Source: Bacteroidales bacterium (lineage in GTDB: Bacteria > Bacteroidota > Bacteroidia > Bacteroidales > UBA12077). Taken from it: DNA of 64,000 nucleotides. Shown one piece after another: positions 7,160 to 64,000 of the stretch; the stretch's first letter is position 1; each line of letters begins with the position of its first letter. The stretch lies in contig JAKSCO010000069.1 of assembly GCA_022360575.1 (NCBI GenBank), forward strand, positions 4,702 through 68,701, written 5' to 3'. Under the pieces are notes generated by a model. That model ran no database searches. It saw only the letters and a list, made by a program, of their open reading frames with translations, and was not told the DNA's origin. Both the position numbers and the translations under genes were made by a program.

Positions 7160-7264
7160 CCAAAATCGTAGATTATATAAAAACTCAATTATGAGTTAAG
7201 CCCAAAATCTCAGATTATGTAAAACTCAATCATGTATTAAGCCCAAAATCGCAAACTGATAATC
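7160..7264. repeat. tandem repeat, 41-42 bp unit x ~2.5
   Basis: Three units: CCAAAATCGTAGATTATATAAAAACTCAATTATGAGTTAAGC, CCAAAATCTCAGATTATGTAAAACTCAATCATGTATTAAGC and CCAAAATCGCAAACTGATAATC. Confidence 0.8.
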
Positions 7265-7272
7265 AGCGAAAG

Positions 7273-7309
7273 CTTATTTTTATTACTCATTTTGATATTC
7301 TTTTGTTAT
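7273..7309 (+). repeat. partial (right-end only) copy of the dispersed MITE-like repeat
   Basis: CTTATTTTTATTACTCATTTTGATATTCTTTTGTTAT aligns with the right end of the copies at 15442, 19891 and 32157. Confidence 0.6.
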
Positions 7310-7524
7310 TAAATGGCAGGGCAAGTTATTCTGTTCCGGGAAGCAATAAAAAAGGCTGCCAAAAAAATATTTGACAGCCATTCTTCTTAAAATAGAAACT
7401 AAATTTCTATTCTCAATTTGAGTTTGGTAAATATTAATAGCTAAGTTATTTCATATCTCAAAAAGGATATCCTTAGCCTATCAATATTTGTTCGAGTGTT
7501 AGCATAAAACTCTTTCTTGTTAAT

Positions 7525-19130: not shown

Positions 19131-19284
19131 TAATACCAATTATGCCGCAAAATGATTGATAAAAGCATTATTATATAATACAAATCAAATTGAAATTTAA
19201 TGATATTACTTGACCTTCCAAACATCAATAATGGGGTTAACACCCCCATTGATGATGTTCTAACCCCGATTAATTGTATAAATA

Positions 19285-19730
19285 ATATCGAATAGCATCT
19301 ACTAAACATATGTGATATATATTTCTTACATCAAACATACTGTTTTTTACATCTATCAAGACTTAAATGACATCGATTAATATCTTTTTTTGGTCGATAG
19401 CCTCGATAAAAACATCGATAATATACCTTTTTTACATCCTTCGAGGCCAAAAGAACATCCTTCGAGATCATTTTTACATCAATCATGACCTTTTCTACAT
19501 CGACAGAGATGTTTTTTACATCAATATTTTGATCAATTTTACCCCAACTTTGATGTAAATTAGATCGAGAAAGATGTATTTTACCCCAACTTTGATGTCT
19601 TTTAGGTGTTTTTTCTTTCAAAATTTTGAGGTGAATCGATGTTTTTGAGGTCTCGGAGGATGTAATTACCGAGCCAAATAATGTTTTTTAGATCATTCTC
19701 GATCTTAACTACATCATTTTTGATGTAGTT
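19285..19730. repeat. two opposed arrays of a 21-bp-phased pentamer (ACATC then GATGT)
   Basis: ACATC starts at 19328, 19349, 19370, 19412, 19434, 19455, 19476, 19497 and 19518. GATGT starts at 19552, 19573, 19594, 19638, 19659 and 19722, with near-matches at 19680 and 19701. The 20-mer TTTTACCCCAACTTTGATGT occurs at both 19537 and 19579. Confidence 0.85.
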
Positions 19731-19890
19731 AACCCCAAACTTGGGGTTCGAGATATTGTTGTTGGTGTTACGGATAAAAAGAATATCTATAAAATAAATA
19801 AGTATTAGCCAAACTGAATAAATTTGGCTATTCTTAATAAAGCTATAGTATTCTTACTAAAGAAATATTTTGTAATTCTGTCAACTATCA

Positions 19891-20042
19891 CAATTTCAAA
19901 ATGGGGATTTATAAAACTGAATAATTTTTGTCTTAGACACGATAAAAAAGTAAAAGATAGCCTAATTACCTTGCAGCTTTTTGATAATGGCTAAAGTAAA
20001 AAGAAACGTTTTTATTATTCTTATTGATGTTCTTTGGGTATA
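19891..20042 (+). repeat. dispersed MITE-like repeat, copy B (left end diverged)
   Basis: GGGGATTTATAAAACTGAATAATTTTTGTCTTAGACACGATAAAAAAGTAAAAGATAGCCTAATTACCTTGCAG...GATGTTCTTTGGGTAT aligns along its length with copy C. Confidence 0.75.
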
Positions 20043-20256
20043 ACTGCTCATTTCTAATGTTAGGTCTAATTAAAATTAATGCTATTAGAATTGAATATCT
20101 GATCTTTGTATTTTAATTTTTTAAAGAGATACAAAGCCCATTCGATTTTTTTAACGTTTACTGCTTGTGTGCAAATACTCCCCTGAAAGTTAAGCTATAC
20201 TTGAAGATAAGCGTTTTTTTAGTGTATAAATAATCATATTGTTATAAAAATAATGT

Positions 20257-25201: not shown

Positions 25202-26068
25202 TTATTTCATTTTATCAATAATTCCCATTATTCGTTCTAAATCTTCGTCGGATTTAAAAGGAATAACTATTTTACCGCTACCTTTATTGTTACGTTTAAA
25301 ATCAATTTTAGAGCTAAAATGTTCTGCTAAATGTTTCTGTAGTTGTTCGTATTCTTCAGGTAATCTAACTTTTGTTTTGGGATTATTTTTTTTAGGAGTA
25401 TTAATATCTCTTATAATATCTTCGGTTTTACGAACAGATAAACCTTCGTCGATAATTTGATAATAAATTTTTAACTGAGTAACTTCATTTTCAATGTTAA
25501 CTAAAGCACGGGCATGTCCCATTGAAATCTGCTTATCTCTTATTCCTAATTGTATTTCGGCAGGAAGTTTTAATAGGCGAAGGTAATTCGAAACAGTAGA
25601 TCGTTTTTTCCCTACGCGCTCACTCATACTTTCTTGAGTAAGTTTACACTCTTCAATTAATCTTTGGTAACTAATAGCAACTTCGATGGCATCTAAATCT
25701 TCGCGTTGAATATTTTCAACTAAAGCCATTTCGAGCATTCCTTGATCATCTGCAAAGCGAATGTATGCCGGGATTTTTTTAAGACCTGCTATTTGAGATG
25801 CTCTAAGTCTGCGTTCTCCTGATATTAGTTGAAATTTACCATTATCGAGAGTTCTTACAGTAATAGGCTGTATTATACCGAGCTCTTTTATCGATTTTGA
25901 TAGTTCTTCGAGAGAGTCTTCATTAAAAATGGTTCGAGGCTGAAATGGATTAGCTTCTATTTTATAGATATCTATTTCGTTAACCGCATCAGCAGTTACA
26001 ATTTTTTCCTGCCCTGCTTCATCAATTAATGCTCCGAGTCCTCTACCTAATGCGTTTCGTTTTGCCAT
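25202..26068 (-). CDS. parB: chromosome partitioning protein ParB/Spo0J
   Basis: Contains GLGRGLGALI, NPFQPR, the GIIQPITVR and ISGERRLRA boxes, and the HTH segment QESMSERVGKKRSTVSNYLRLLKLP. Confidence 0.9.
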   Translation of the reverse strand: MAKRNALGRGLGALIDEAGQEKIVTADAVNEIDIYKIEANPFQPRTIFNEDSLEELSKSIKELGIIQPITVRTLDNGKFQLISGERRLRASQIAGLKKIPAYIRFADDQGMLEMALVENIQREDLDAIEVAISYQRLIEECKLTQESMSERVGKKRSTVSNYLRLLKLPAEIQLGIRDKQISMGHARALVNIENEVTQLKIYYQIIDEGLSVRKTEDIIRDINTPKKNNPKTKVRLPEEYEQLQKHLAEHFSSKIDFKRNNKGSGKIVIPFKSDEDLERIMGIIDKMK

Positions 26069-26085
26069 TTCACATTTATATTAAA

Positions 26086-26886
26086 TTATTCTACAACTTT
26101 TTCTGCGTTTGCTATTTTGGTGTTATCGTTTTTTTGCAATAATTCTTTTGCTAAATTTAAATAGTTGATAGCTCCTTTTGATGCAGCATCATATAATACT
26201 ACAGGTTTCCCATAACTAGGAGATTCGCTTAATTTTATATTTCGCTGTATTATTGTTTCAAAAACCATATTTTGAAAGTGTTTCTTAACCTCGTCAACCA
26301 CTTGATTCGAAAGTCTTAATCTTGGATCGTACATGGTTAATAAGAAACCTTCAATTTCTAATTCTTTATTTAATCTTGATTGTATAATCTTAATTGTATT
26401 TAAAAGTTTTCCTAAACCTTCTAGTGCAAAATATTCGCACTGAACAGGAATTATAACAGAGTCGGCAGCAGTTAGTGCATTTACTGTAATTAAACCTAAG
26501 GATGGAGAGCAATCAATTAAGATATAGTCGTAATCGTCGCGTATACCTTCGATAATTTGCTTAAGCACATATTCGCGATTAGGTTGATTTAGCATCTCTA
26601 TTTCGGCTCCAACAAGATCTATGTGAGAAGGTATTATGTCGAGTTTTTCGATATCGCTATTTAGAATGATATTTTTGGGATCTTGTTCGTCGACCAAACA
26701 TTCGTAAATACTTGTTTTTACGGCTCGAATATCAAACCCCGTTCCTGATGTAGCATTTGCCTGAGGATCGGCATCAATGATTAATACTTTTTTTTCAAGA
26801 ACAGCTAAACTTGCTGCCAAATTAATTGAAGTGGTTGTTTTTCCTACCCCTCCTTTTTGATTAGCTAATGCAATTACCTTTGCCAT
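26086..26886 (-). CDS. parA: ParA/Soj partition ATPase
   Basis: Deviant Walker A motif NQKGGVGKTTT, DADPQANATSG, and DYILIDCSPSLG. Confidence 0.9.
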   Translation of the reverse strand: MAKVIALANQKGGVGKTTTSINLAASLAVLEKKVLIIDADPQANATSGTGFDIRAVKTSIYECLVDEQDPKNIILNSDIEKLDIIPSHIDLVGAEIEMLNQPNREYVLKQIIEGIRDDYDYILIDCSPSLGLITVNALTAADSVIIPVQCEYFALEGLGKLLNTIKIIQSRLNKELEIEGFLLTMYDPRLRLSNQVVDEVKKHFQNMVFETIIQRNIKLSESPSYGKPVVLYDAASKGAINYLNLAKELLQKNDNTKIANAEKVVE

Positions 26887-28232: not shown

Positions 28233-30710
28233 TTAAACAGGATCAACATCGGTAGATATGCGAACGGATTTAAAATTATTTTGAGTTGTGATATTAATAA
28301 TTTGTTCGTCGAGTAATTTTTTTGCTCGTTGAAAAGAACTTTCGCGTTCTACTTTTAAGATAATATTCTGAATGTAGTTGTTTTGTACTCTCGAAATAAT
28401 AGGGGATTCAGGGCCTAAAACTCTTTTCCCAAATATTTTCCGCATCGAAATAGCTAATTGATCGGCTGCTTTGTTGGTAATATCTTGTTTTTTATGACGA
28501 ATACTTATTCGTATTAAACGATAAAAAGGGGGGTATTTATAGTTTTTACGTTCGAATAGTTGAGATTTATACATTTCGTCGTATTTGTTATCAAGAACAT
28601 ATTGTAATATAGGATGTCCCGGGTTGTTACTTTGGATAATTACTTTCCCTTGTTTGTTTTTACGTCCTGCTCGTCCGCTAACTTGGGCTATTAGCTGGTA
28701 GCTTCGTTCAAATGCTCTAAAATCGGGATAGTTAAGCATGTTGTCGGCATTTAATATCCCGACTAAACTTACGTTATCAAAATCGAGCCCTTTTGATACC
28801 ATTTGAGTTCCGATTAAAATATCGATTTCGCCTGTTTCGAAACTGGATATAATATTTTGATAAGCATTTTTCTTTCGGGTCGAATCAAGGTCCATACGCG
28901 CAACTTTAGCTTCGGGGAAGAATATTTTTATTTCGTCTTCGATTTTTTCGGTTCCGAAACCTCTTGTCTGAACTGCTGTGTTGCCACAAGCCTTACATGT
29001 TCGGGGTACTTTAATAGTATATCCACAGTAGTGGCAAACTAGTTCGTTATTATGACGGTGATAAGTTAAACTAACGTCGCAATGCTTACATTCGGGAATC
29101 CATCCACACATATCGCACTCGAGATAAGGAGAGAACCCTCTACGGTTTTGAAATAGAATTACCTGTTCGTTCATTTGGAGAGATTCTTTTATACTATCGA
29201 GCAAAGCAGGAGAGAAGTGCGATTTCATTTCTTTACGCTTTTTTGCTCTTAGTGTATCTACCAAACAGTTTTCGGGTAATTGTATGTTCTGGAAACGAGT
29301 ATTTAATCGAACTAATCCATATTTGTTGGCTTTTGCATTAAAATAACTCTCGATTGATGGAGTTGCTGTACCTAAAAGAACTTTGGCTGCGTGCATTTGA
29401 GCTAATACAACAGAACAGTCGCGGGCATTGTATCGAGGTGCCGGATCGTATTGTTTGTAGGTGTTTTCGTGTTCTTCGTCGACAATAACCAATCCTAGGT
29501 TTGAGAATGGCAAAAACAGCGACGAGCGAACACCTAAGATAACATCATATTTCTTTAGTTCGTCTTGGTCTAAAATATTTTGATAAACCTCTACTCGTTC
29601 AGAATCGCTAAATTTTGAATGATAAACACCTACTTTGTTGCCGAATACCGATTGTAATCGATTTATAATTTGTGTTGTAAGAGCTATTTCGGGAAGTAGA
29701 TAAAGAACCTGTTTTCCTTGGTTTATTTGTTCCTGAATAAGATGAATGTATATTTCGGTTTTTCCGCTTGATGTTACTCCGTGTAATAAAACAACATCCT
29801 TATTTTTGAATGTTTCAAGAATCTGATCGTGGGCATTTTGTTGAGCTTCGGAAAGCTCTTTTATGGCTACCGATTTTATAGAAGAGTTATCTAATCGACT
29901 GATTGTTTTGTTGTATTCGCTAAGAATATTTTTGTCGATTAATGATTTTATTATCGATGTGTTGGTTTTTGATTCGTCGGCAAGATCTTTCTTTTTTACT
30001 TCGATAACCTGATTTTTTACAAAGCTCCCTGAAAGTTTAATGTAGCTCATTAAAACATGCAATTGTTTTGGGGCTCGGCTTAATTGTTCGAATGTATTAT
30101 TAAGAATAGATTCTGAATTTATTGACTCATTAAGTTTTATGTAAGAATCGGTTTTGGGTTTGTAGTTTTCTCTAATCTTTTCTTCGAGAATAATTGATTT
30201 CTTTTCTAATAATGATTTTAAAACAGGAAGAGAATCTTTTTTGTTAAGGGCATCTGAAACCTCTTTTACGCTGGCAATATTTTTATCGGCTAAGAAATCT
30301 AAAATTAAAGTTTCTGTTTGCGAAAATGTGTTTTTTTCGATAAACTCAGGATTGTATATTACTTTTGTTTCGCTTTCGAGTTTTAATCCTGAAGGTAATG
30401 CTGCTTTAAAAACTTCGCCTAGCGAGCACATATAATAATTCGCAATCCAGTTCCATAAATCAAGTTGATATTTATTGGCGATAGGAGTTTTATCTAAAAC
30501 AGAAATAATGTCTTTTGTTTCGTAATCTTGGGGTTTGTTCTTATGAATAGAAAAAACAACAGCAGCATAAATTTTACGTACTCCAAACTGAACAATTACT
30601 CGTTTGCCTATTTTTATTTCATCGAATAGCTCGGCAGGAACACTATATGTAAATAATTGTTTTAGGGGTAATGGTAAAATTACATCTATAAAATTAAGTT
30701 GTTCGTTCAT
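28233..30710 (-). CDS. priA: primosomal replication-restart helicase PriA
   Basis: Walker A (GVTSSGKTEIY), the DEEHE box, and a Cys-rich zinc-binding insert (CDMCGW...CKHCDVSLTYH...CHYCG...CKACG). Length is 825 aa. Confidence 0.9.
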   Translation of the reverse strand: MNEQLNFIDVILPLPLKQLFTYSVPAELFDEIKIGKRVIVQFGVRKIYAAVVFSIHKNKPQDYETKDIISVLDKTPIANKYQLDLWNWIANYYMCSLGEVFKAALPSGLKLESETKVIYNPEFIEKNTFSQTETLILDFLADKNIASVKEVSDALNKKDSLPVLKSLLEKKSIILEEKIRENYKPKTDSYIKLNESINSESILNNTFEQLSRAPKQLHVLMSYIKLSGSFVKNQVIEVKKKDLADESKTNTSIIKSLIDKNILSEYNKTISRLDNSSIKSVAIKELSEAQQNAHDQILETFKNKDVVLLHGVTSSGKTEIYIHLIQEQINQGKQVLYLLPEIALTTQIINRLQSVFGNKVGVYHSKFSDSERVEVYQNILDQDELKKYDVILGVRSSLFLPFSNLGLVIVDEEHENTYKQYDPAPRYNARDCSVVLAQMHAAKVLLGTATPSIESYFNAKANKYGLVRLNTRFQNIQLPENCLVDTLRAKKRKEMKSHFSPALLDSIKESLQMNEQVILFQNRRGFSPYLECDMCGWIPECKHCDVSLTYHRHNNELVCHYCGYTIKVPRTCKACGNTAVQTRGFGTEKIEDEIKIFFPEAKVARMDLDSTRKKNAYQNIISSFETGEIDILIGTQMVSKGLDFDNVSLVGILNADNMLNYPDFRAFERSYQLIAQVSGRAGRKNKQGKVIIQSNNPGHPILQYVLDNKYDEMYKSQLFERKNYKYPPFYRLIRISIRHKKQDITNKAADQLAISMRKIFGKRVLGPESPIISRVQNNYIQNIILKVERESSFQRAKKLLDEQIINITTQNNFKSVRISTDVDPV

Positions 30711-32156: not shown

Positions 32157-32318
32157 ATACCAAATAGGTTTCAAGATGAAGGATTTATAAAAATGAATAA
32201 TTTTTGTCTTAGACGCGACGAAAAAGTAAAAGATAGCCGAGTTACCTTGCAACTTTTTTGGCAATGGCTAAGGTAAAAAGAAACGTTTTTATCACTCATT
32301 TTGATGTTCTTTGGGTAT
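32157..32318 (+). repeat. dispersed MITE-like repeat, copy C (longest)
   Basis: ATACCAAATAGGTTTCAAGATGAAGGATTTATAAAAATGAATAATTTTTGTCTTAG...CACTCATTTTGATGTTCTTTGGGTAT. It carries a 17-bp internal segment absent from copy A. Confidence 0.8.
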
Positions 32319-32406
32319 TATATCTCTATAAATTATTTTAACCTACAACTTCACTTTTACTTTTATTTTATATATTTATTACTCAAAACCTTTAATTTAT
32401 AACAAA

Positions 32407-44900: not shown

Positions 44901-45857
44901 ATGTCATTAAAAATACCAACACTAGAAGATATTTATACTACACACAAACGAATAAAATCACTTATACACAAAACACCAGTTTTAACATCATCAAGTATTA
45001 ATAATATATTAGGAACATCAATATCTTTTAAGTGTGAGAATTTTCAGAAAGTTGGAGCATTTAAATTTCGAGGAGCAACAAATGCCTGTCTCTTGTTAGA
45101 AAAAGAAAATATTAAAAATGGGGTAACTACTCATTCTTCAGGGAATCATGCCGCAGCTTTAAGTTTAGCCGCGAAACAACTAAACACTCCGGCTTATATC
45201 GTAATGCCCGAAAATGCTCCTCTGATTAAGAAGAAAGCAGTAGCTGGTTACGGAGCTCAAATTACTTACTGTAAAGCAACATTAAAAGATAGGGAAACAA
45301 CCTTAAAACAAATTCAGAAAAAAACAAATGCCACATTCATTCATCCATACGATAATTTTGATATAATAAGCGGACAAGCTACTTGTGTAAAAGAACTATT
45401 AAAAGAAAATCCTGATTTAGATACAATTATTGTCCCCATTGGAGGAGGAGGACTAATGAGTGGAACTGCATTATACTGTAAATTAACAAACCCAAAATTA
45501 AAAATATTCGGAGCCGAACCATTAATGGCTAATGATGCATATAAATCGTATAAAAAAGGAAAACTCATTCTTGCTGATTCGCCAAAAACAATTGCCGATG
45601 GTTTACTAACTTCATTAAGTCCGTTAACATTCGAAATTATAAAAAATAATGTTGATGACATTTTTACTGTAAGCGAGCAATCAATAATAGAAGCGATGCG
45701 AATGGTTTGGGAACGAATGAAAATTATTATTGAACCATCATCTGCTGTTCCATTAGCTGCAATTATTGAAAACAAAACTATTTTTAGAAATCAGAAAGTT
45801 GGAATTATTATTTCAGGAGGAAATATCGACTTAGAAAACCTTCCTTTTAAACCATAA
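44901..45857 (+). CDS. PLP-dependent threonine/serine dehydratase-family enzyme (fold type II)
   Basis: FKCENFQKVGAFKFRGA (PLP lysine), SSGNHAAALS, and the GGGGLMSG phosphate loop. Confidence 0.8.
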   Translation: MSLKIPTLEDIYTTHKRIKSLIHKTPVLTSSSINNILGTSISFKCENFQKVGAFKFRGATNACLLLEKENIKNGVTTHSSGNHAAALSLAAKQLNTPAYIVMPENAPLIKKKAVAGYGAQITYCKATLKDRETTLKQIQKKTNATFIHPYDNFDIISGQATCVKELLKENPDLDTIIVPIGGGGLMSGTALYCKLTNPKLKIFGAEPLMANDAYKSYKKGKLILADSPKTIADGLLTSLSPLTFEIIKNNVDDIFTVSEQSIIEAMRMVWERMKIIIEPSSAVPLAAIIENKTIFRNQKVGIIISGGNIDLENLPFKP

Positions 45858-46008
45858 ATGGGCAAACAAGCGTGTCTACTTTTAATCTTCTCTAGCTCGG
45901 CGAAAAATAAGCAAGTAAATATATATTAAAAAGAACGCTCGGCGGCATTTGTAATGCCGACGTTTTATTGTCAGGCAATTTGCCATTGCTTTGCAAAAAC
46001 AAAAAACA

Positions 46009-46279
46009 ATAGCAGGAAGCTAACTCTATGCGCAGGGAGCATTTTTTAATGCCAAATCCATTAAATTCAATAGCAGGGAACCTCTACAACATTGCAGGGA
46101 GCCTTTATAGTACTCCAGGAAACTCCCACAGCATTGCAGGGAGCAGAGAATGTTATGCAAATTAGGGTCACAGTATAGCAGGGAGTCATAACACAACGTT
46201 AAAGAAACGTTTTTTCACGTCAGGGAATCAAAACTTAATAGCAGGGAGCCAATTTCATGAGCAGGGAGCATTTTTTAAC
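46009..46279. repeat. 21-bp-phased array of the 9-mer GCAGGGAGC (about 13 unit positions, 10 recognisable)
   Basis: CAGG cores at 46013, 46033, 46074, 46095, 46116, 46137, 46179, 46221, 46242 and 46262, giving spacings of 20, 41, 21, 21, 21, 42, 42, 21 and 20. Five copies match GCAGGGAGC exactly. Confidence 0.85.
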
Positions 46280-47504
46280 TCAACTTATCGAGAATTAAAT
46301 TTGTTGCTCCACAATGTTGTTTTACATAATTTGCCGAACGATTCCCTGATTGAAGTATAAAGTCGTAATCATCAAGCAACTTCAATATTATATCTTCATA
46401 ATCTGTTGCCGAGCTAATAGCGAAAGCTGCTTGTTGTTTTAATAAATCGAGGGCTTCTTGAAATTTCTGATAATTGGGACCAAAAATTACGGGTAGTCCA
46501 AAAGTTGCTGCTTCTAATGTGTTATGAATACCTTTCCCAAAACCACCTCCTATATACGCTATATCTCCATATTTATATAAAGACGATAACATTCCTATGC
46601 TATCAATAATTAACACATCGGCCTTTTCAATATTTGTTTCGTTTGCATCAGAATATTTTAACACATTTGTTTTTGCTGTAAAAGCATTTATTATTCTCGA
46701 AATATTATCGCTATGTATTTCGTGAGGAGCAATTATTAGTTTATATCGCGAGTTTTGATTAAAAAAGCCAATTATAATTTCTTCGTCGGGTTTCCACGAG
46801 CTTCCCGCAATTATAATTTTAGAATTGTTCTTAAATTTTTCTACTAAAGGTAGTTCTTTAGCTTTTTGTGCTATTGCAAAAACCCTATCAAACCGGGTGT
46901 CTCCCGATATACTAACATTATTTAATTCTATAGAATTAAGTAAATCATGCGAGTTTTTATTCTGAACAAAAAAGTGAGTAAAATTATTTAGCATGCGACG
47001 AGCATTTTTTCCATACCATTTAAAAAAATGTTGGTTTTTCCTAAAAATTCCCGACACCAGATAAAGAGGGATTTCTCTTCGTCCTATTTCTTGAATAAAA
47101 CATTGCCAAAATTCGTATTTTATAAAAAAAACAATTCGAGGATTTACAATGTCAATAAATTGTTTTGCATTTCTTGGGGTGTCTATTGGTAAGTAATATA
47201 CATAATCGGCAAACTCATAATTTTTACGAATCTCGTATCCCGAAGGAGAAAAAAATGTTAATAATATTTTATGATCAGTATATTTCTTTTTGTAGGCCTC
47301 AATAACAGGTCTACCTTGCTCAAATTCCCCTAACGATGCACAATGAAACCAAGCAACAGGCTCCCCCGGAACAATCTCATCCTTTAATCGATTCAACAAA
47401 TTTTTGCGTCCATCAATCCATTGTTTGGCTTTAAGATTAAATAAAGCAAATATCGAAATTATTAAATAATAAGCCTTTAAAGCTATGGTGTAAAAAAATG
47501 TCAT
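46275..47504 (-). CDS. waaA: 3-deoxy-D-manno-octulosonic acid (Kdo) transferase
   Basis: WFHCASLGEFEQGRPVIEA, the GDTRFD motif and IGGGFGKGIHNTLEAATFGLPVIFGPN. Length is 409 aa. Confidence 0.85.
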   Translation of the reverse strand: MTFFYTIALKAYYLIISIFALFNLKAKQWIDGRKNLLNRLKDEIVPGEPVAWFHCASLGEFEQGRPVIEAYKKKYTDHKILLTFFSPSGYEIRKNYEFADYVYYLPIDTPRNAKQFIDIVNPRIVFFIKYEFWQCFIQEIGRREIPLYLVSGIFRKNQHFFKWYGKNARRMLNNFTHFFVQNKNSHDLLNSIELNNVSISGDTRFDRVFAIAQKAKELPLVEKFKNNSKIIIAGSSWKPDEEIIIGFFNQNSRYKLIIAPHEIHSDNISRIINAFTAKTNVLKYSDANETNIEKADVLIIDSIGMLSSLYKYGDIAYIGGGFGKGIHNTLEAATFGLPVIFGPNYQKFQEALDLLKQQAAFAISSATDYEDIILKLLDDYDFILQSGNRSANYVKQHCGATNLILDKLS

Positions 47505-48039: not shown

Positions 48040-51000
48040 TTGCTAAGAAAGATAATCTTCATATTAACACTATTTATAAGTACAAACTTAACTGCTCAGA
48101 ATTTAAGTAATATCCGATATAAAAGCTTAAAAGTAGATTTAGACACCATACTTGTCGATTCGTTGTCCATAGTCCCAGGATCAGAGATTATCTCTTATCG
48201 TGATAAAATTCTAAATAAAAACGATTATTCTATAGATTACCCAAAATCTGTGCTGACACTTTCTCAATACATTGTTGATTCGATAAACTATATAACTATA
48301 AGGTATCGGGTTTTCCCGATAAATTTTGCCGAACACACATATTTCCGAAAAACAGATGATGTTATCATTACAGGACCTGTTTTAACTTACCCTAAAGAAC
48401 GACATAGGAATACAGCATATAATTTTTTTAACGATAATCAAATTGATAAAAGAGGAAGCATATCGAGAGGTATAACAATCGGAAATAATCAAGATGCCGT
48501 AATTAATTCAAATCTAAATCTACAAATGTCTGGAAAACTTAGTCAGGATATGTATATTATGGCTGCAATATCAGACAAAAATATCCCTATACAACCAGAA
48601 GGAAATTCGCAGCAAATACAAGAGTTTGATAAGATATTTATTCAGCTGTATAACGATAAAACCAAACTTGTTGCCGGAAATTTCGAAATTTACAAACCCT
48701 CTGTATACTTCATGAATGTGAATAAAAAAGGTTTGGGAGCTTTATTCTCGTCGAAAATAGCCTTGAAAAACAAAAAATCATTGCAAACAACTGTAAGTGG
48801 AGCTATATCCAGAGGGAAATATTGTCGAAAAAAAATTCAGGGACAAGAAGGGAATCAAGGTCCGTATAAAATCACTGGTTGCGAAAACGAACAATTTATA
48901 ATTATCCTATCGGCTACCGAGCGGGTCTTTATTAACGGAAAATTACTGAAACGAGGTAAAGAAAATGATTATACCATAGATTATAATACAGGCGAACTAA
49001 CTTTTACTGCTAATAATCCAATAACTAAAGATTCTAGAATTAGTGTAGAATTCGAATATACCGAAAGAAGCTATTCGCGATTTTTTATTTATAGCGAAAA
49101 CGAGATAAAAATTTCCAAAGGGAAGGTTTGGATTAATGTATTTTCAGAACAAGACAGCAAAAACCAACCAATAAATCAGAGTTTAACTTCTGATCAAAAG
49201 AAATTACTATCCGAAATAGGCGATAATATCGAAAAAGCAGTAATTCCTAATGTTGATAGTGTCGAATTTCGGAGCGATTATGTATTGTACGAAAAAACAG
49301 ATACTCTAGTAAATAAAAGAGTGTATTCGATATACAGACATTCCAAAAATCCCAGAAAGGCATATTATCAGGTAGGTTTTAGTTTAACACCCGATAATAA
49401 AGGCGATTATATTCAGGTTCAGAATTCGGCAAACGGAAAGGTTTTTAAATGGGTTGCCCCGATAAATAATATTCCTCAGGGAAATTATCAGCCGGTTCGA
49501 TTGCTTGTTTCTCCTAAAAAACAACAAATGTTAGATTTCGGAAGCGAGCTGAAACTAAATGCGCGAACACAAACAAATTTCGAAGTAGCTTTAAGTAATA
49601 AGGATGTTAATACTTTTTCGAGTATTGGTAATTCTGATAATGCAGGTTATGCTATAAAACTTGATGTTACAAATTTCTGGTTGATAAAAGATACCCTGAA
49701 AAACAACCTTAACACGACGGTTTCTTATCGTCTGATAAATAAAAATTTCGAAGCAATAGAACGATTTCGACCTATCGAATTTGAAAGAGACTGGAATATT
49801 GTTGTCCCGTTTACTTCCGACGAGCATTTGGGACAATTTAATGTTGCATATAAACATAAAAATGATTTAAGGACTAGGTATGGGTTCGATTTTTTATCCG
49901 GGAATGATTATTTGGGTTATAAAAATAACTTGGGCTTATATGTTAATAAATCAAAATTTGATTTTACAGTGGATGCTAGCTTGTTAAATACAAACTCAGA
50001 TTTTAATACAACTCGATATATAAAATCGTTTATAGATATTAACAAGGAACTTAAATTTATTAAGATAGGAGCTAATACCGAACAAGAATACAATAAATGG
50101 AAATCGGCAAACGATAGTTTACAAAGTAATAGTTTCAATTTCGATGCATATAAAATATATATAACAAATCCCGAATCGTATGTAAATAAATACAGCTTAA
50201 GCTACACCTTGCGTAATGATTATCTGCCTTCGTTTAATAAGTTTTCTCATGCAACAAAAGCCGAAGATCTTAGAGTAAACTTTGGTTTACTGAAAAACCC
50301 AGCAAGTATTTTAAAAGCAGGTTTAAACTATAGAACGCTCGATGTAAGAGATACTTCGTTGGTTAAAGAAAAAGCTGAAAATACACTTACCGGACGACTC
50401 GATTATTCTTTTAAATTGTTTAAAGGAATTGTTTCGTCGCTTACTTTTTACGAAGCCGGTTCGGGACTCGAACCCAAAAGAGAATATTCATACTTGAAGG
50501 TTACCGACGGACAAGGAACCTATGCTTGGACTGATTACAATGAAAATAAAACTGCCGAATTAAATGAGTTTGAAGTTGCAAAATTCCAAGATCAAGCAAA
50601 TTATATACGAGTTTACACTACTGCCAATAATTATATCAAGACAAACAAAAACGAATTTAGTCAGACTTTGAACATCAATCCTTATACTAATTGGAGGAGT
50701 AAAAAAGGACTACGAAAGATATTATCGCATTTCTCAAATAGTTTTGCATATTTAGTTAAGCAAAAAACTACGAATGACGATATTAATAGTTTTAATCCTT
50801 TTTATAAAGCTCAGGATACAACAATTATTAACTTAGAGAAAAATTTGCGGAATACTTTTTCGTTTAATCGTTCTCATACAAAATATGGTGTCGATTATAT
50901 TTTTCAGGAGAATGGGAGTAAACTTCTTTTATTAAATGGAATAGAAGAACGAAACAGACTTATACATGCTCTTAATGCTCGTTTTCGCTTTTTATCTGAT

Positions 51001-51474
51001 TTTACAATACAAAACAAATCCGAGCTAGGTTTTAAGAAATATAAATCAGAATTTTTTTCGAAACAAAACTATACAATAAAATACTCTCAGAATGATTTTG
51101 CGATTATTTATCAACCGGGATTTAAAACACGAATAAAGCTTAATTATAAATACAACGAAAAACGAAATACTTTGTCTATTGAAAAATCATATTTAAACAA
51201 TTTGGGTTTAGAGTTAAGTTATTCTATTTCAAAAAAAGGAACATTAAGAGCTAAATTCGATTACTTGAAAATTAAGTACAACTCAACAACAAATACTCCG
51301 ATAGCATATGAAATTCTGGAGGGCTTAAAGCCGGGGAATAATGGTGTTTGGAATTTTCAGTTTCAGATGAAATTAGCAAAAAACTTAGAAATGAACATTA
51401 ATTATGACGGACGTATTTCGGAAACAACCAAAACAATTCATACCGGAAATGTTCAATTAAGGGCATTTTTTTAA
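48040..51474 (+). CDS. large predicted outer-membrane protein of unknown function (signal peptide, beta-rich, C-terminal Phe)
   Basis: MLRKIIFILTLFISTNLTAQ signal with a TTG start. It has 1144 aa with alternating beta-strand-like patterns in the C-terminal half and ends ...GNVQLRAFF, as many OM beta-barrels do. No family recognised. Confidence 0.5.
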   Translation: MLRKIIFILTLFISTNLTAQNLSNIRYKSLKVDLDTILVDSLSIVPGSEIISYRDKILNKNDYSIDYPKSVLTLSQYIVDSINYITIRYRVFPINFAEHTYFRKTDDVIITGPVLTYPKERHRNTAYNFFNDNQIDKRGSISRGITIGNNQDAVINSNLNLQMSGKLSQDMYIMAAISDKNIPIQPEGNSQQIQEFDKIFIQLYNDKTKLVAGNFEIYKPSVYFMNVNKKGLGALFSSKIALKNKKSLQTTVSGAISRGKYCRKKIQGQEGNQGPYKITGCENEQFIIILSATERVFINGKLLKRGKENDYTIDYNTGELTFTANNPITKDSRISVEFEYTERSYSRFFIYSENEIKISKGKVWINVFSEQDSKNQPINQSLTSDQKKLLSEIGDNIEKAVIPNVDSVEFRSDYVLYEKTDTLVNKRVYSIYRHSKNPRKAYYQVGFSLTPDNKGDYIQVQNSANGKVFKWVAPINNIPQGNYQPVRLLVSPKKQQMLDFGSELKLNARTQTNFEVALSNKDVNTFSSIGNSDNAGYAIKLDVTNFWLIKDTLKNNLNTTVSYRLINKNFEAIERFRPIEFERDWNIVVPFTSDEHLGQFNVAYKHKNDLRTRYGFDFLSGNDYLGYKNNLGLYVNKSKFDFTVDASLLNTNSDFNTTRYIKSFIDINKELKFIKIGANTEQEYNKWKSANDSLQSNSFNFDAYKIYITNPESYVNKYSLSYTLRNDYLPSFNKFSHATKAEDLRVNFGLLKNPASILKAGLNYRTLDVRDTSLVKEKAENTLTGRLDYSFKLFKGIVSSLTFYEAGSGLEPKREYSYLKVTDGQGTYAWTDYNENKTAELNEFEVAKFQDQANYIRVYTTANNYIKTNKNEFSQTLNINPYTNWRSKKGLRKILSHFSNSFAYLVKQKTTNDDINSFNPFYKAQDTTIINLEKNLRNTFSFNRSHTKYGVDYIFQENGSKLLLLNGIEERNRLIHALNARFRFLSDFTIQNKSELGFKKYKSEFFSKQNYTIKYSQNDFAIIYQPGFKTRIKLNYKYNEKRNTLSIEKSYLNNLGLELSYSISKKGTLRAKFDYLKIKYNSTTNTPIAYEILEGLKPGNNGVWNFQFQMKLAKNLEMNINYDGRISETTKTIHTGNVQLRAFF

Positions 51475-53221: not shown

Positions 53222-54775
53222 TTAAGCGTTTGGTTTTAATTTAATAAACGGAATTATCATCTCCTCCATCGATATCCCTCCATGCTGAAAGGTATTTTTA
53301 TAATAATTCACATAGTAATTATATTTATTTGGATATGCTAAGAAATCATTATTCATAGCAAAAATATAACTTGTTGTAATGTTTGCTTTAGGTAGGTGCA
53401 CTTTATGAGGCTCGCGTATTTCGTAAACTTCTTTTGGATTATAATTTAAGTTTCTCCCGTTTTTATACCTCAGGTTTGTCGATGTATTTTTGTCACCTAT
53501 AACTTTTATTGGGTTTTGTACTCGAACAGTTCCGTGATCAGTTGTAATAATAAGCTTTACGTTTTGCGATTTAAGTATTTTTATTAATGAAAATAAAGGA
53601 GAATGTTTAAACCACGAAATTGTGAGTGATCTATATGCAGCTTCATCATTGGCTAGTTCTCGTATCATCTCCATTTCTGTTCTTGCATGCGAGAGCATAT
53701 CAATGTAATTGTATACTAATATATTTAAATCATTATTGAGTAGATTGCTAATGTTTTCAACTACTTTTTCTCCTGTTTTTAAATGACTAATTTTCTCGTA
53801 TCCGAATTTGTAATTTTTCCCAAATCGTTTCATTTGAGCGTCAAACAACTCTGCTTCGTTGTTATTTTTACCTCCTTCGTCACTATCGTTTAACCAATAT
53901 TGTGGATGTAGTTTGTCGATTTCGTAAGGCATTAATCCCGCAAATATAGCATTACGAGCATATTGTGTAGCTGTGGGTAGGATGCTGCAATATAGTTTTT
54001 CAGTTTCTGTTGTAAAGTAATCGTCAATTAAAGGCTGGATCAGTTTCCATTGATCGTATCTGAAATTATCGATAAGTAAAACAAAAACTTTTTCGCCCTG
54101 ATCTAATATGGGAAAAATCTCATCTTTAAACAGGTTTGGTGACATTAAAGGTTTTTTTGATCCTTCTCGAAACCAGCTTTCGTAATTCTTTTTTATAAAC
54201 CGAACAAAACCAGTATTGGCATCAGATTTTTGCATCGAAAATACTTCTTTCATTCCCGAATCAGGATTTTGTTCAAGTTCAAGTTCCCAGTAAGTTAATT
54301 TTTGGTATAGCTCAACCCATTCATCAAATGTAGCAGCATCTGACATTTGTAGTCCTATTTTTCCAAAATTTGATTGATAATTCGAAATTGTTTTCTCAGA
54401 AATAAGACGTTTGTTGTCAATATTTTTTTTAATACTTAATAGTATTTGTTTCGGATTTACAGGCTTTATCAAGTAGTCGGCAATTTTAGACCCAATGGCC
54501 TCCTCCATTATATCTTCTTCTTCGCTTTTAGTGATCATTACAACAGGAGTTGTGGCTTTTTTCTCTTTAATATGCTCTAGGGTTTGTAAACCACTCATTC
54601 CGGGCATATTTTCGTCTAAAAAGATTAAGTCAAAATCTTCAGACGAAACCAATTCGATAGCATCATCTCCATTACTGGCAGTAACTACATCAAATCCTTT
54701 TTCTTCTAAAAATAAAATATGAGGTCTTAGTAAGTCTATCTCATCATCGGTCCACAATATCCTAACTTTTTTCAC
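53222..54775 (-). CDS. porX: T9SS response regulator PorX (receiver + PglZ/alkaline-phosphatase-superfamily domain)
   Basis: VRILWTDDEIDLLRPHILFLEEKGFDV...IFLDENMPGMSG is the receiver domain. A ~380-aa PglZ-like domain follows (ITTDHGTV). Length is 517 aa. Confidence 0.8.
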   Translation of the reverse strand: MKKVRILWTDDEIDLLRPHILFLEEKGFDVVTASNGDDAIELVSSEDFDLIFLDENMPGMSGLQTLEHIKEKKATTPVVMITKSEEEDIMEEAIGSKIADYLIKPVNPKQILLSIKKNIDNKRLISEKTISNYQSNFGKIGLQMSDAATFDEWVELYQKLTYWELELEQNPDSGMKEVFSMQKSDANTGFVRFIKKNYESWFREGSKKPLMSPNLFKDEIFPILDQGEKVFVLLIDNFRYDQWKLIQPLIDDYFTTETEKLYCSILPTATQYARNAIFAGLMPYEIDKLHPQYWLNDSDEGGKNNNEAELFDAQMKRFGKNYKFGYEKISHLKTGEKVVENISNLLNNDLNILVYNYIDMLSHARTEMEMIRELANDEAAYRSLTISWFKHSPLFSLIKILKSQNVKLIITTDHGTVRVQNPIKVIGDKNTSTNLRYKNGRNLNYNPKEVYEIREPHKVHLPKANITTSYIFAMNNDFLAYPNKYNYYVNYYKNTFQHGGISMEEMIIPFIKLKPNA

Positions 54776-63958: not shown

Positions 63959-64000
63959 ATGAAATTTATTGGAATAATTCCTTCTCGTTACGAATCAACT
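63959..64000 (+). CDS. kdsB: 5' end of 3-deoxy-manno-octulosonate cytidylyltransferase (CMP-Kdo synthetase), cut by the window edge
   Basis: MKFIGIIPSRYEST matches the KdsB N-terminus pattern (IIPARY.S.R). Only 14 codons are visible. Confidence 0.55.
   Translation, partial: MKFIGIIPSRYEST

What the first reader, a model, noticed from the sequence alone, without database searches (positions are those of the whole stretch)
46009..46279. 21-bp-phased array of the GC-rich 9-mer GCAGGGAGC abutting the waaA stop codon
This lies in the convergent spacer between the dehydratase gene (ends 45857) and waaA (stop at 46275-46277). The motif (A/T)(T/A)(A/T)GCAGGGAGC recurs with CAGG cores at 46013, 46033, 46074, 46095, 46116, 46137, 46179, 46221, 46242 and 46262. 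The spacings are 20, 41, 21, 21, 21, 42, 42, 21 and 20, i.e. about 13 slots of 21 bp with three degenerate slots. Five copies are exactly GCAGGGAGC. The others are single or double variants (GCAGGAAGC, GCAGGGAAC, CCAGGAAAC, GCAGGGAGT, TCAGGGAAT). The ~9 nt between motifs is unrelated from unit to unit. The second and last units share the extended form GCAGGGAGCATTTTTTAA. No ORF of 60 aa or more spans the array. A GC-rich 9-mer repeated this often in very AT-rich DNA cannot be chance. There are two readings. (a) The minus-strand waaA mRNA would carry about ten GCUCCCUGC sites in its 3' UTR, or a plus-strand RNA would carry about ten CAGGGA/CAGGAA sites. The latter is formally reminiscent of the multi-GGA sponge RNAs CsrB/RsmZ, although CsrA is not known in this phylum. 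(b) Alternatively it is a same-face DNA-binding array like the one at 19285. It is too short-period to be a CRISPR array.
Basis: seen in the sequence. Interest (0 to 1): 0.7.

Follow-up and report, generated by a model that had tools for sequence, protein, structure and literature searches.

The report
Dispersed 21-bp-phased non-coding repeat array
The GC-rich 9-mer array after waaA is real and non-random, but it is one copy of a species-specific non-coding repeat found between converging genes, not a waaA-specific or CsrB-type element, and its function is still unknown.

Summary
Ten GCAGGGAGC-type cores lie at 46012-46269 on one strand, on a strict 21-bp register. Core identity is 83%; spacer identity is 32%, near random.

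The link to waaA is not supported. WaaA relatives at 64-67% identity have no array. A second copy, about 93% identical including its spacers, lies about 51 kb away on the same chromosome. It sits beside an unrelated gene, and two assemblies break inside it. The copies differ by whole units (105 = 5x21 nt, and 20 nt), and copy 2 differs by one unit between two samples.

This Bacteroidales MAG holds 21/42-bp-period arrays with unrelated cores at every large convergent gene junction sampled (four). Sampled relatives have none.

There is no match in Rfam, plasmids or phages. Coding is rejected: a conserved TAG interrupts the frame, and third-codon positions are fixed. RNA folding gives no support for a sponge.

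Best reading, with moderate confidence: a lineage-specific dispersed tandem-repeat element. Its conserved cores are probably recognition sites for a DNA-binding protein lined up on one face of the helix.

Rivals are an RNA-level 3'UTR or sponge, and a selfish or neutral minisatellite.

The parts
45940..45969 (+). Intrinsic terminator of the upstream PALP (dehydratase-like) gene. It forms the left border of the element.
   Evidence: Terminator scan found a stem at 45943-45959 followed by a T-run. Inverted repeat I1 lies here.
45970..46011 (+). A-rich 5' lead-in of the element (..CATTGCTTTGCAAAAACAAAAAACAATA). It is shared with copy 2; the left limit is approximate.
   Evidence: Alignment of the window with L264. 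No canonical Bacteroidetes TAnnTTTG box is present.
46012..46269 (+). The array: 10 intact cores in 13 slots of 21 bp, all in one orientation. Core consensus is ATW-GCAGGGAGC. Cores start at 46012, 46032, 46073, 46094, 46115, 46136, 46178, 46220, 46241 and 46261.
45997..46049 (+). Left terminal two-core block. It contains a 4-bp mini-hairpin (AUGC / GCAU) with the core in its loop, followed by T6.
   Evidence: Direct repeat D3, 81% identical to 46226-46278. Copy 2 has the same terminal duplication. The hairpin is read directly from the sequence.
46226..46278 (+). Right terminal two-core block. It ends in GCAGGGAGCATTTTTTAA, which overlaps the waaA stop codon.
46052..46060 (+). Empty in-phase slot with no recognisable core.
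   Evidence: Register; sequence.
46157..46165 (+). Decayed in-phase core GCAAATTAG (GGG changed to AAT). It contains the TAG that closes the 45-aa ORF. The same slot in copy 2 reads GCAAACTAG / GTAAATTAG.
46195..46215 (+). Empty slot holding AACGTT-AAAGA-AACGTT plus a T-run, a weak hairpin. AAAGAAACGTTTTT is shared with the junction of another repeat family in this genome.
   Evidence: (I2).
46275..46277 (-). waaA stop codon, 5 nt beyond the last core.
   Evidence: Pfam Glycos_transf_N on the product.

Best explanation
Window ~45970-46275 is one copy of a lineage-specific, dispersed, non-coding repeat element, not an appendage of waaA.

Shown:
- The element is a tandem array of 21-bp units, grouped into 42-bp and longer blocks. 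Its first two-unit block is repeated at its end.
- It occurs at least twice on this chromosome.
- It changes by gain, loss or swap of whole units.
- It sits, like three other arrays with the same 21/42-bp period but unrelated cores, in the gap between converging genes.
- In each unit only a 9-12-bp GC-rich core is kept, while the AT-rich remainder drifts. Some in-phase cores have decayed towards AT.

Inferred:
- The cores are under selection as recognition sites for a sequence-specific factor.
- The register is exactly two helical turns and is kept across empty slots and across a 105-bp (5x21) indel. The sister array at 19285 uses its core in both orientations. The factor is therefore most likely a DNA-binding protein that lines up on one face of the helix. 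This is the geometry of iterons, integrase arm sites, LytTR operators and Bacteroides HTCS operators.
- Whether that protein serves the host (for example as a barrier or organiser at convergent junctions) or only the element's own spread is open.
For: - Core and spacer statistics and phase.
- Enrichment over shuffles.
- Identity across three assemblies.
- Absence after waaA in relatives.
- Second copy: L264 was found through a spurious ORF. It is about 93% identical including spacers, with unrelated flanks and indels of 105 and 20 nt.
- Copy 2 lies on the same contig, about 4.7 kb before window position 1. It has the same orientation and runs into the stop codon of a minus-strand 690-aa gene. 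Contigs from two samples break inside it.
- One unit of copy 2 differs between two samples.
- Substitutions between the copies: 2/90 in cores against 14/186 in spacers.
- Other arrays with a 21/42-bp period lie at convergent junctions: 7160-7253, 19327-19660 and L265:8766-9055. The remaining four convergent junctions measure 5-25 nt. Sampled loci of relatives have none.
- The 19285 array lies in a 1.1-kb insertion where relatives have about 55 nt.
- A 21-bp spacing of direct-repeat operators is the norm for Bacteroides HTCS regulators (PMC3878776).
- GC-rich soil and viral contigs show CAGGGAATTT direct repeats at 21-23 bp; in one (L160) the array follows what looks like a tRNA 3' end. This is a DNA-level analogue.
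Against: - No candidate binding protein was found. No integrase, transposase or rep gene lies nearby.
- There is no promoter for the array to control.
- A 21-bp register follows automatically from unit-wise duplication, so phasing alone does not prove a helical-face constraint.
- The core-versus-spacer difference between the two copies is only a trend (Fisher p = 0.10).
- All cores of this array point one way, and both copies have the same orientation towards the converging gene. Spacers on the + strand are G-poor (17 G against 33 C). All three features would also fit an RNA-level role.
- Only two copies are documented.
Confidence: 0.4

Rival explanations
1. Selfish or neutral intergenic minisatellite or mosaic element, like BIME, BOX or NIME. 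The arrays would arise by slippage and unequal exchange and survive only where insertions are harmless, between converging genes. No trans-acting partner would exist and the host would gain nothing.
For: - The arrays are lineage-specific and absent from relatives.
- They are multi-copy, with unit-number differences between copies and between samples.
- They are restricted to convergent junctions.
- They share short modules with other dispersed repeats of the same genome.
- Assemblies break inside them.
Against: - Uniform decay is not seen. GC-rich 9-mers stay 83% identical in a 31% GC genome while spacers are near random. This needs selection on the cores or an unknown process that adds core plus new spacer.
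- Four arrays with unrelated cores share one period, which points to a common constraint.
Confidence: 0.3
2. RNA-level element. In one form, the 3'UTR of the converging gene (waaA, or the 690-aa gene at copy 2) carries about ten GCUCCCUGC sites. In the other, a plus-strand RNA carries about ten CAGGGA / CAGGAA sites and titrates an RNA-binding protein. In this phylum that protein would be a single-domain RRM protein rather than CsrA.
For: - Both copies have the same orientation and reach to within 5-33 nt of the stop codon of the converging gene. That gene's transcript must therefore enter the array.
- Both copies end in a mini-hairpin followed by a T-run on the + strand.
- Spacers on the + strand are G-poor.
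- The + strand RNA folds less stably than its shuffles, z = +1.26.
- B. thetaiotaomicron RbpB binds a 3x GUAGGAUA probe (bioRxiv 10.1101/2021.04.27.441718), which loosely resembles GCAGGAAG.
Against: - No Rfam family matches.
- No Bacteroidetes-type promoter box lies upstream.
- The cores are no more unpaired than with shuffled spacers on either strand: 0.46 against 0.44, and 0.65 against 0.63.
- The window has no CsrA, and the literature reports none in the phylum.
- The terminal hairpins have only 4-bp stems.
- The sister array at 19285 uses its core on both strands, which argues for DNA there.
- A strict register has no obvious use in RNA.
Confidence: 0.2
3. Coding, or decayed coding, sequence for a heptad-repeat (beta-solenoid-like) peptide. 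In one + frame, ATW-GCA-GGG-AGC reads I-A-G-S every 7 codons.
For: - One + frame has a single stop across 46010-46360.
- Its translation gives a sub-threshold Pfam match to LbR_Ice_bind (E 1.5e-5, 25.4 bits against a cut-off of 30).
- A gene caller produced a 146-aa 'protein' on copy 2.
Against: - That 146-aa product exists only if TAG is read as sense. The DNA has in-frame TAGs at the same slot in both copies.
- Four intact cores lie beyond the stop.
- The first and last cores are out of frame.
- Third-codon positions of the core are as fixed as the others (A 10/10, G 8/10, C 8/10), although the spacers are saturated. Conservation is therefore at the nucleotide level.
- The only related sequences among 1.84 billion representatives are copy 2 and unrelated low-complexity repeat proteins.
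Confidence: 0.03

Closest known systems
Intergenic mosaic or modular repeats: E. coli BIME/REP arrays, pneumococcal BOX elements, neisserial NIMEs (from my own knowledge, not tested by homology)
   Same: All are dispersed, non-coding and species-specific. They are built of short units repeated in tandem and are found after genes, often between converging genes. Unit number varies between copies. NIMEs in particular alternate a conserved short repeat with variable segments.
   Different: There is no sequence similarity. The cores here are not palindromic (REP and dRS3 are), and all point one way. The period is a strict 21 bp with a 9-bp core. No RAYT-like or other mobilising gene was seen.
Plasmid and phage iterons, and integrase arm-type site arrays
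   Same: Both consist of direct repeats of a short asymmetric site spaced about two helical turns apart, with variable spacers. I found such arrays (CAGGGAATTT at 21-23 bp) in GC-rich contigs; in one (L160) the array follows what looks like a tRNA 3' end.
   Different: No rep, integrase, tRNA or DnaA-box cluster lies nearby. Plasmid and phage collections give no match. Ten to thirteen sites exceed the usual three to seven.
Direct-repeat operators of LytTR regulators (9 bp + 12 bp, from my own knowledge) and of Bacteroides AraC-type HTCS regulators (mean 21 bp, PMC3878776)
   Same: The geometry is identical: a 9-bp core, a 12-bp AT-rich spacer, and sites on the same face of the helix. It occurs in the same phylum.
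   Different: Those operators have two sites and lie just upstream of a promoter. This array has ten sites in a terminator-side gap with no promoter box. There are no extra sites at promoters in about 80 kb of this genome.
CsrB/RsmZ-type protein-sponge RNAs
   Same: About ten CAGGGA / CAGGAA motifs lie in about 260 nt. The core is flanked by GC..GC, which could close a small loop. Overall predicted structure is low.
   Different: See the membership test: no Rfam match, no promoter, no CsrA, and no enrichment of unpaired cores.
CRISPR arrays
   Same: A conserved repeat alternates with fixed-length, unrelated spacers.
   Different: The repeat is 9-12 nt and the spacer 9-12 nt, far below CRISPR sizes. 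The window shows no cas genes. The whole array, spacers included, is duplicated elsewhere.

Membership tests
CsrB/RsmY/RsmZ sponge RNA | Match to the family covariance models | tested here: not met
   There are no Rfam hits at gathering score in the window. Nothing relevant appears at E<=10 in 45850-46320 or at E<=1 on copy 2.
CsrB/RsmY/RsmZ sponge RNA | Many GGA motifs presented in hairpin loops or single-stranded stretches | tested here: inconclusive
   GGA is present in 10/10 cores. Mean unpaired probability of AGGGA is 0.46, against 0.44 +/- 0.06 with shuffled spacers.
CsrB/RsmY/RsmZ sponge RNA | A CsrA/RsmA protein in the organism | tested here: inconclusive
   tblastn finds no hit in the 64-kb window. 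The rest of the genome is not available. The literature found none in the Bacteroidetes genomes it surveyed.
CsrB/RsmY/RsmZ sponge RNA | Own promoter and intrinsic terminator | tested here: not met
   No TAnnTTTG box lies upstream. The scan found no terminator inside the array; only 4-6-bp hairpins with T-runs are present.
Iteron origin or plasmid centromere | Direct repeats at about 2 helical turns | tested here: met
Iteron origin or plasmid centromere | Adjacent rep or par gene, DnaA boxes or an AT-rich unwinding element, and mobile-element context | tested here: not met
   The neighbours are housekeeping genes. There is no DnaA-box or parS cluster. Plasmids and phages give no match.
LytTR / HTCS direct-repeat operator | 9-bp (or similar) direct repeats about 21 bp apart | tested here: met
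   The HTCS geometry is from PMC3878776.
LytTR / HTCS direct-repeat operator | Position just upstream of a regulated promoter, with a cognate regulator gene | tested here: not met
   The gap is convergent, with no promoter box. None of the ten nearest neighbouring genes scanned encodes a DNA-binding regulator of these families.
Minisatellite / VNTR | Head-to-tail units, with unit-number differences between copies or strains | tested here: met
Minisatellite / VNTR | Divergence spread evenly over the unit | tested here: not met
   Core identity is 0.83 against 0.32 in spacers. TRF does not detect the array.
REP/BIME | Imperfect palindromic units in alternating orientation | tested here: not met
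   The cores are asymmetric and all on one strand.
CRISPR | Repeats of at least ~23 nt, spacers of at least ~26 nt, and cas genes | tested here: not met
   The unit is 21 nt in total. The only Rfam CRISPR hit is a chance match at E = 0.08.
Heptanucleotide microsatellite (GCAGGGA)n | 7-nt period | tested here: not met
   Most genome-collection hits to the two-core pattern are 7-nt arrays. In the window the positions between cores are unrelated AT-rich sequence.

The most novel reading that the evidence does not exclude
This Bacteroidales lineage has installed, at its convergent gene junctions, a set of 21-bp-phased arrays with different cores. Each would be bound by its own sequence-specific protein and act as a polar nucleoprotein barrier or organiser. 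That would stop transcription or replication from running into the opposing gene. The one-way GCAGGGAGC arrays would be one-sided barriers, and the two-way array at 19285 a two-sided trap. An alternative of similar novelty is that the plus-strand transcript is a multi-site sponge for the RRM-type RNA-binding proteins that replace Hfq and CsrA in this phylum.
Probability: 0.12. Interest if true: 0.8.

Novelty: new variant of a known kind. Interest (0 to 1): 0.5.

Why it matters
If the cores are protein-binding sites, the element is a compact bait for finding a new DNA-binding or RNA-binding specificity in an uncultured Bacteroidales lineage. Post-transcriptional and chromosome-organising factors are poorly known in that phylum.

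The wider pattern is not explained by known repeat families. Several arrays have unrelated cores but share one 21/42-bp period, and all lie between converging genes. This could point to a common mechanism that generates or constrains such arrays.

On the practical side, these arrays break short-read assemblies. They also produce spurious 'proteins', such as a 146-aa ORF with a weak ice-binding Pfam match, when TAG is read as sense.

If the array is only a selfish minisatellite, the finding is ordinary.

Tried and rejected
- Rfam at gathering and at E-value level, on the window, the array, copy 2 and the 19285 region: nothing relevant.
- Three-core pattern with G-excluding positions, in viral and metagenome collections: the hits were true tandem repeats, coding repeats, and GC-rich arm-site-like arrays. 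None was related to this element. Both large scans were truncated, so absence elsewhere cannot be claimed.
- Two element-specific patterns in viral contigs: zero hits.
- Plasmid and phage BLAST: no match.
- Orthologous waaA loci: no array.
- CsrA by tblastn in the window: none.
- DnaA-box and parS clusters: none.
- tRNA genes: none.
- Promoter scans, sigma-70-type and Bacteroidetes TAnnTTTG: nothing convincing. One TAAATTTG at 46296 is within chance expectation.
- RNA folding of both strands and the core-accessibility test: no signal.
- Rho-utilisation reading of the minus strand: rejected, because the region is not C-rich and G-poor overall (60 C against 53 G on the minus strand, from the base counts).
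- Coding reading: rejected.
- Proteins next to copy 2: no informative domains.

Full report
OBSERVATION

Ten cores of the form GCAGGGAGC, five of them exact, start at 46012, 46032, 46073, 46094, 46115, 46136, 46178, 46220, 46241 and 46261. All are on the + strand.

With one mismatch allowed, 8 of the 11 hits in the 64-kb window fall here. Dinucleotide shuffles give 2.3 hits on average and never 11.

Eight cores share one phase modulo 21, and the two outer ones are off by one. Pairwise identity is 0.83 in the nine core columns, 0.44 in the three positions before the core (A-T-W), and 0.32 in the spacers. The random expectation is 0.26.

Three slots are empty. One of them, 46157-46165 (GCAAATTAG), looks like a core decayed towards AT.

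The array fills the gap between the terminator of the PALP gene (45943-45959) and the waaA stop codon (46275-46277). It is identical in three independent metagenome assemblies, so it is not an artefact. The host is an uncultured Bacteroidales MAG with 31% GC.

INTERNAL ANATOMY

The spacers are not entirely unrelated. The first two-core block (45997-46049) is repeated at the end (46226-46278, 81% identity). A 17-nt extended core recurs every 42 bp. The array is therefore a product of unit-wise and block-wise duplication.

Spacers on the + strand are G-poor (17 G against 33 C), whereas other intergenic DNA has equal G and C.

NOT TIED TO waaA

The closest WaaA proteins in 5.8 billion sequences are only 64-67% identical. 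Three such loci keep the upstream neighbour but have a different downstream gene. Their post-waaA spacer holds no array.

A SECOND COPY

A phmmer search with the 45-aa + strand ORF, meant as a test of the coding idea, hit a 146-aa 'protein'. Its contig, L264 (760 bp), comes from the same sample as one of the window's assemblies.

The L264 DNA does not translate to that protein in the standard code, because the DNA keeps in-frame TAGs. L264 carries a paralogous array about 93% identical to window ~45999-46275, spacers included. Its flanks are unrelated. It has one 105-nt insertion (5 x 21) and one extra 20-nt unit.

The end of the 86-kb contig that holds the window, and the end of a contig from another sample, both stop inside this second copy. 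Copy 2 therefore lies about 4.7 kb before window position 1, roughly 51 kb from copy 1, in the same orientation. Its last core is 33 nt from the stop codon of a minus-strand 690-aa gene of unknown function. This mirrors copy 1 and waaA.

The two samples differ in copy 2 by one swapped unit with a different spacer. Copy 1 is invariant in three samples. Between the two copies, 2 of 90 core positions differ against 14 of 186 spacer positions (Fisher p = 0.10).

A WIDER FAMILY OF ARRAYS

The window's other phased array has nine TTTTTACATC cores at 21 bp (19328-19518). Five or six inverted GATGT cores follow on the same register. It lies in a 1.1-kb spacer between converging genes, where two syntenic relatives have about 55 nt.

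A 41-42-bp tandem repeat lies at 7160-7253, again between converging genes.

Beyond the window's end, the next large convergent gap holds 6.7 copies of a 42-bp unit made of a hairpin plus T-run (L265:8766-9055).

The remaining four convergent junctions are only 5-25 nt long (gene list). A local TRF run finds no such arrays in seven loci of relatives.

Two other dispersed repeats share short pieces with the arrays:
- A ~125-nt element at 15462-15592, 32192-32322 and 19917-20047.
- A 35-nt module at 7277, 15554, 20003, 32286 and 57755(-), and directly after copy 2.

WHAT IT IS NOT

- Known RNA family: there are no Rfam hits.
- Plasmid or phage DNA: there are no matches.
- CRISPR: the 21-nt unit is too short.
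- Heptamer microsatellite: (GCAGGGA)n arrays dominated my collection scans, but they have a 7-nt period.
- Integration site: no tRNA, integrase or transposase lies nearby.
- Origin or centromere: there are no DnaA-box or parS clusters.
- Coding sequence: one + frame reads I-A-G-S every seven codons and gives a sub-threshold Pfam hit. However, the TAG is conserved in both copies and intact cores continue past it. Two cores are out of frame. The third-codon positions of the core are as fixed as the others while spacers are saturated. Conservation is therefore at the nucleotide level.

RNA OR DNA

For an RNA role:
- Both copies have the same orientation and nearly touch the converging gene's stop codon. 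That gene's mRNA must therefore run into the array, which it would carry as GCUCCCUGC.
- Both copies end in a small hairpin plus T-run on the + strand.
- The + strand spacers are G-poor, and the + strand RNA is poorly structured (z = +1.26).

Against an RNA role:
- No promoter box lies upstream.
- The hairpin stems are only 4 bp.
- The natural spacers leave the cores no more accessible than shuffled spacers do on either strand.
- A survey of Bacteroidetes genomes found no CsrA, and the window has none. The RRM protein RbpB binds GUAGGAUA repeats, but the likeness to the core is loose.

For a DNA role:
- The exact two-turn register is kept across empty slots and across the 105-bp indel.
- The sister array uses both orientations.
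- The 9 + 12 bp geometry matches that of LytTR operators (my own knowledge) and of Bacteroides HTCS operators (mean 21 bp, PMC3878776).
- Arm-site-like arrays of CAGGGAATTT at 21-23 bp turned up in unrelated GC-rich contigs, in one of them (L160) after what looks like a tRNA 3' end.

Against a DNA role:
- No binding protein has been identified.
- There is nothing obvious to regulate.
- Unit-wise duplication would produce the register anyway.

VERDICT

It is shown that the feature is real. It is one copy of a lineage-specific dispersed tandem-repeat element with a conserved core, and it belongs to a set of 21/42-bp arrays at convergent junctions.

It is inferred that the cores are recognition sites. 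A DNA-binding protein on one helical face is the most likely partner (confidence 0.4). A selfish or neutral minisatellite (0.3) and an RNA-level 3'UTR or sponge (0.2) remain open.

The element is a new variant of the known class of intergenic mosaic and tandem repeats. Interest is moderate. It rises if the shared period and the junction preference reflect a barrier or organiser function.

Noticed in passing
window 19327-19660 (within the 19131-20256 spacer): A second 21-bp-phased array. Nine TTTTTACATC cores on the + strand are followed by 5-6 inverted GATGT cores on the same register, with 42-bp higher-order units. It lies in a 1.1-kb spacer between converging genes, where two syntenic relatives have about 55 nt.
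   Followed up: partly
window 15462-15592, 32192-32322, 19917-20047: Three copies (83-91% identical) of a ~125-nt non-coding element with a predicted two-hairpin fold. No covariation was seen and there is no Rfam match. It is possibly a multicopy sRNA or a MITE-like repeat.
   Followed up: partly
window 7277-7311, 15554-15588, 20003-20043, 32286-32320, 57755-57713(-); L264:649-683: A 35-nt module, TTTTTATCACTCATTTTGATGTTCTTTTGGTATTA, recurs in intergenic DNA. It always follows a T-run, and it follows different upstream repeats: the 125-nt element, the 41-bp repeat, and copy 2 of the array. At copy 2 its last three bases are the stop codon of the converging gene.
   Followed up: partly
window 7160-7253: A 41-42-bp tandem repeat (2.3 copies) between converging genes, followed by the 35-nt module.
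   Followed up: no
L265:8766-9055 (same contig, beyond window position 64000): There are 6.7 tandem copies of a 42-bp unit, with higher orders of 84 and 126 bp. Each unit is a GCTTTGG..CCAAAGC hairpin plus T-run, so the array looks like a row of intrinsic terminators. It lies in a 490-nt gap between converging genes.
   Followed up: partly
L264:227-667 (protein P0241): A public gene call across copy 2 yields a 146-aa 'protein' with a weak ice-binding beta-roll Pfam tag. It exists only if in-frame TAG codons are read as sense, so it is a spurious ORF made by the repeat.
   Followed up: yes
L004-L123 (genome-contig hits): Heptanucleotide microsatellites (GCAGGGA)n and near variants occur in intergenic DNA of many phyla, including cyanobacteria, Gemmatimonadota, Planctomycetota, Actinomycetota and Bacteroidales.
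   Followed up: no
L160, L201, L249, L155, L236, L215, L183, L167, L132, L134-L137: GC-rich soil and viral contigs share a conserved layout of CAGGGAATTT direct repeats at 21-23 bp plus inverted copies. In L160 the array follows what looks like a tRNA 3' end. The layout looks like integrase arm-type sites of an integrated element family.
   Followed up: no
window 25202-26886, 28233-30710, 53222-54775: parB and parA, priA, and a PorX-like response regulator (receiver + PglZ) show that this is core chromosome. No DnaA-box or parS cluster was found in the window.
   Followed up: no
window 48040-51474 and homologues in L124, L125 and L127: A conserved ~1140-aa protein with no Pfam match is always divergent from waaA in this lineage and its relatives.
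   Followed up: no
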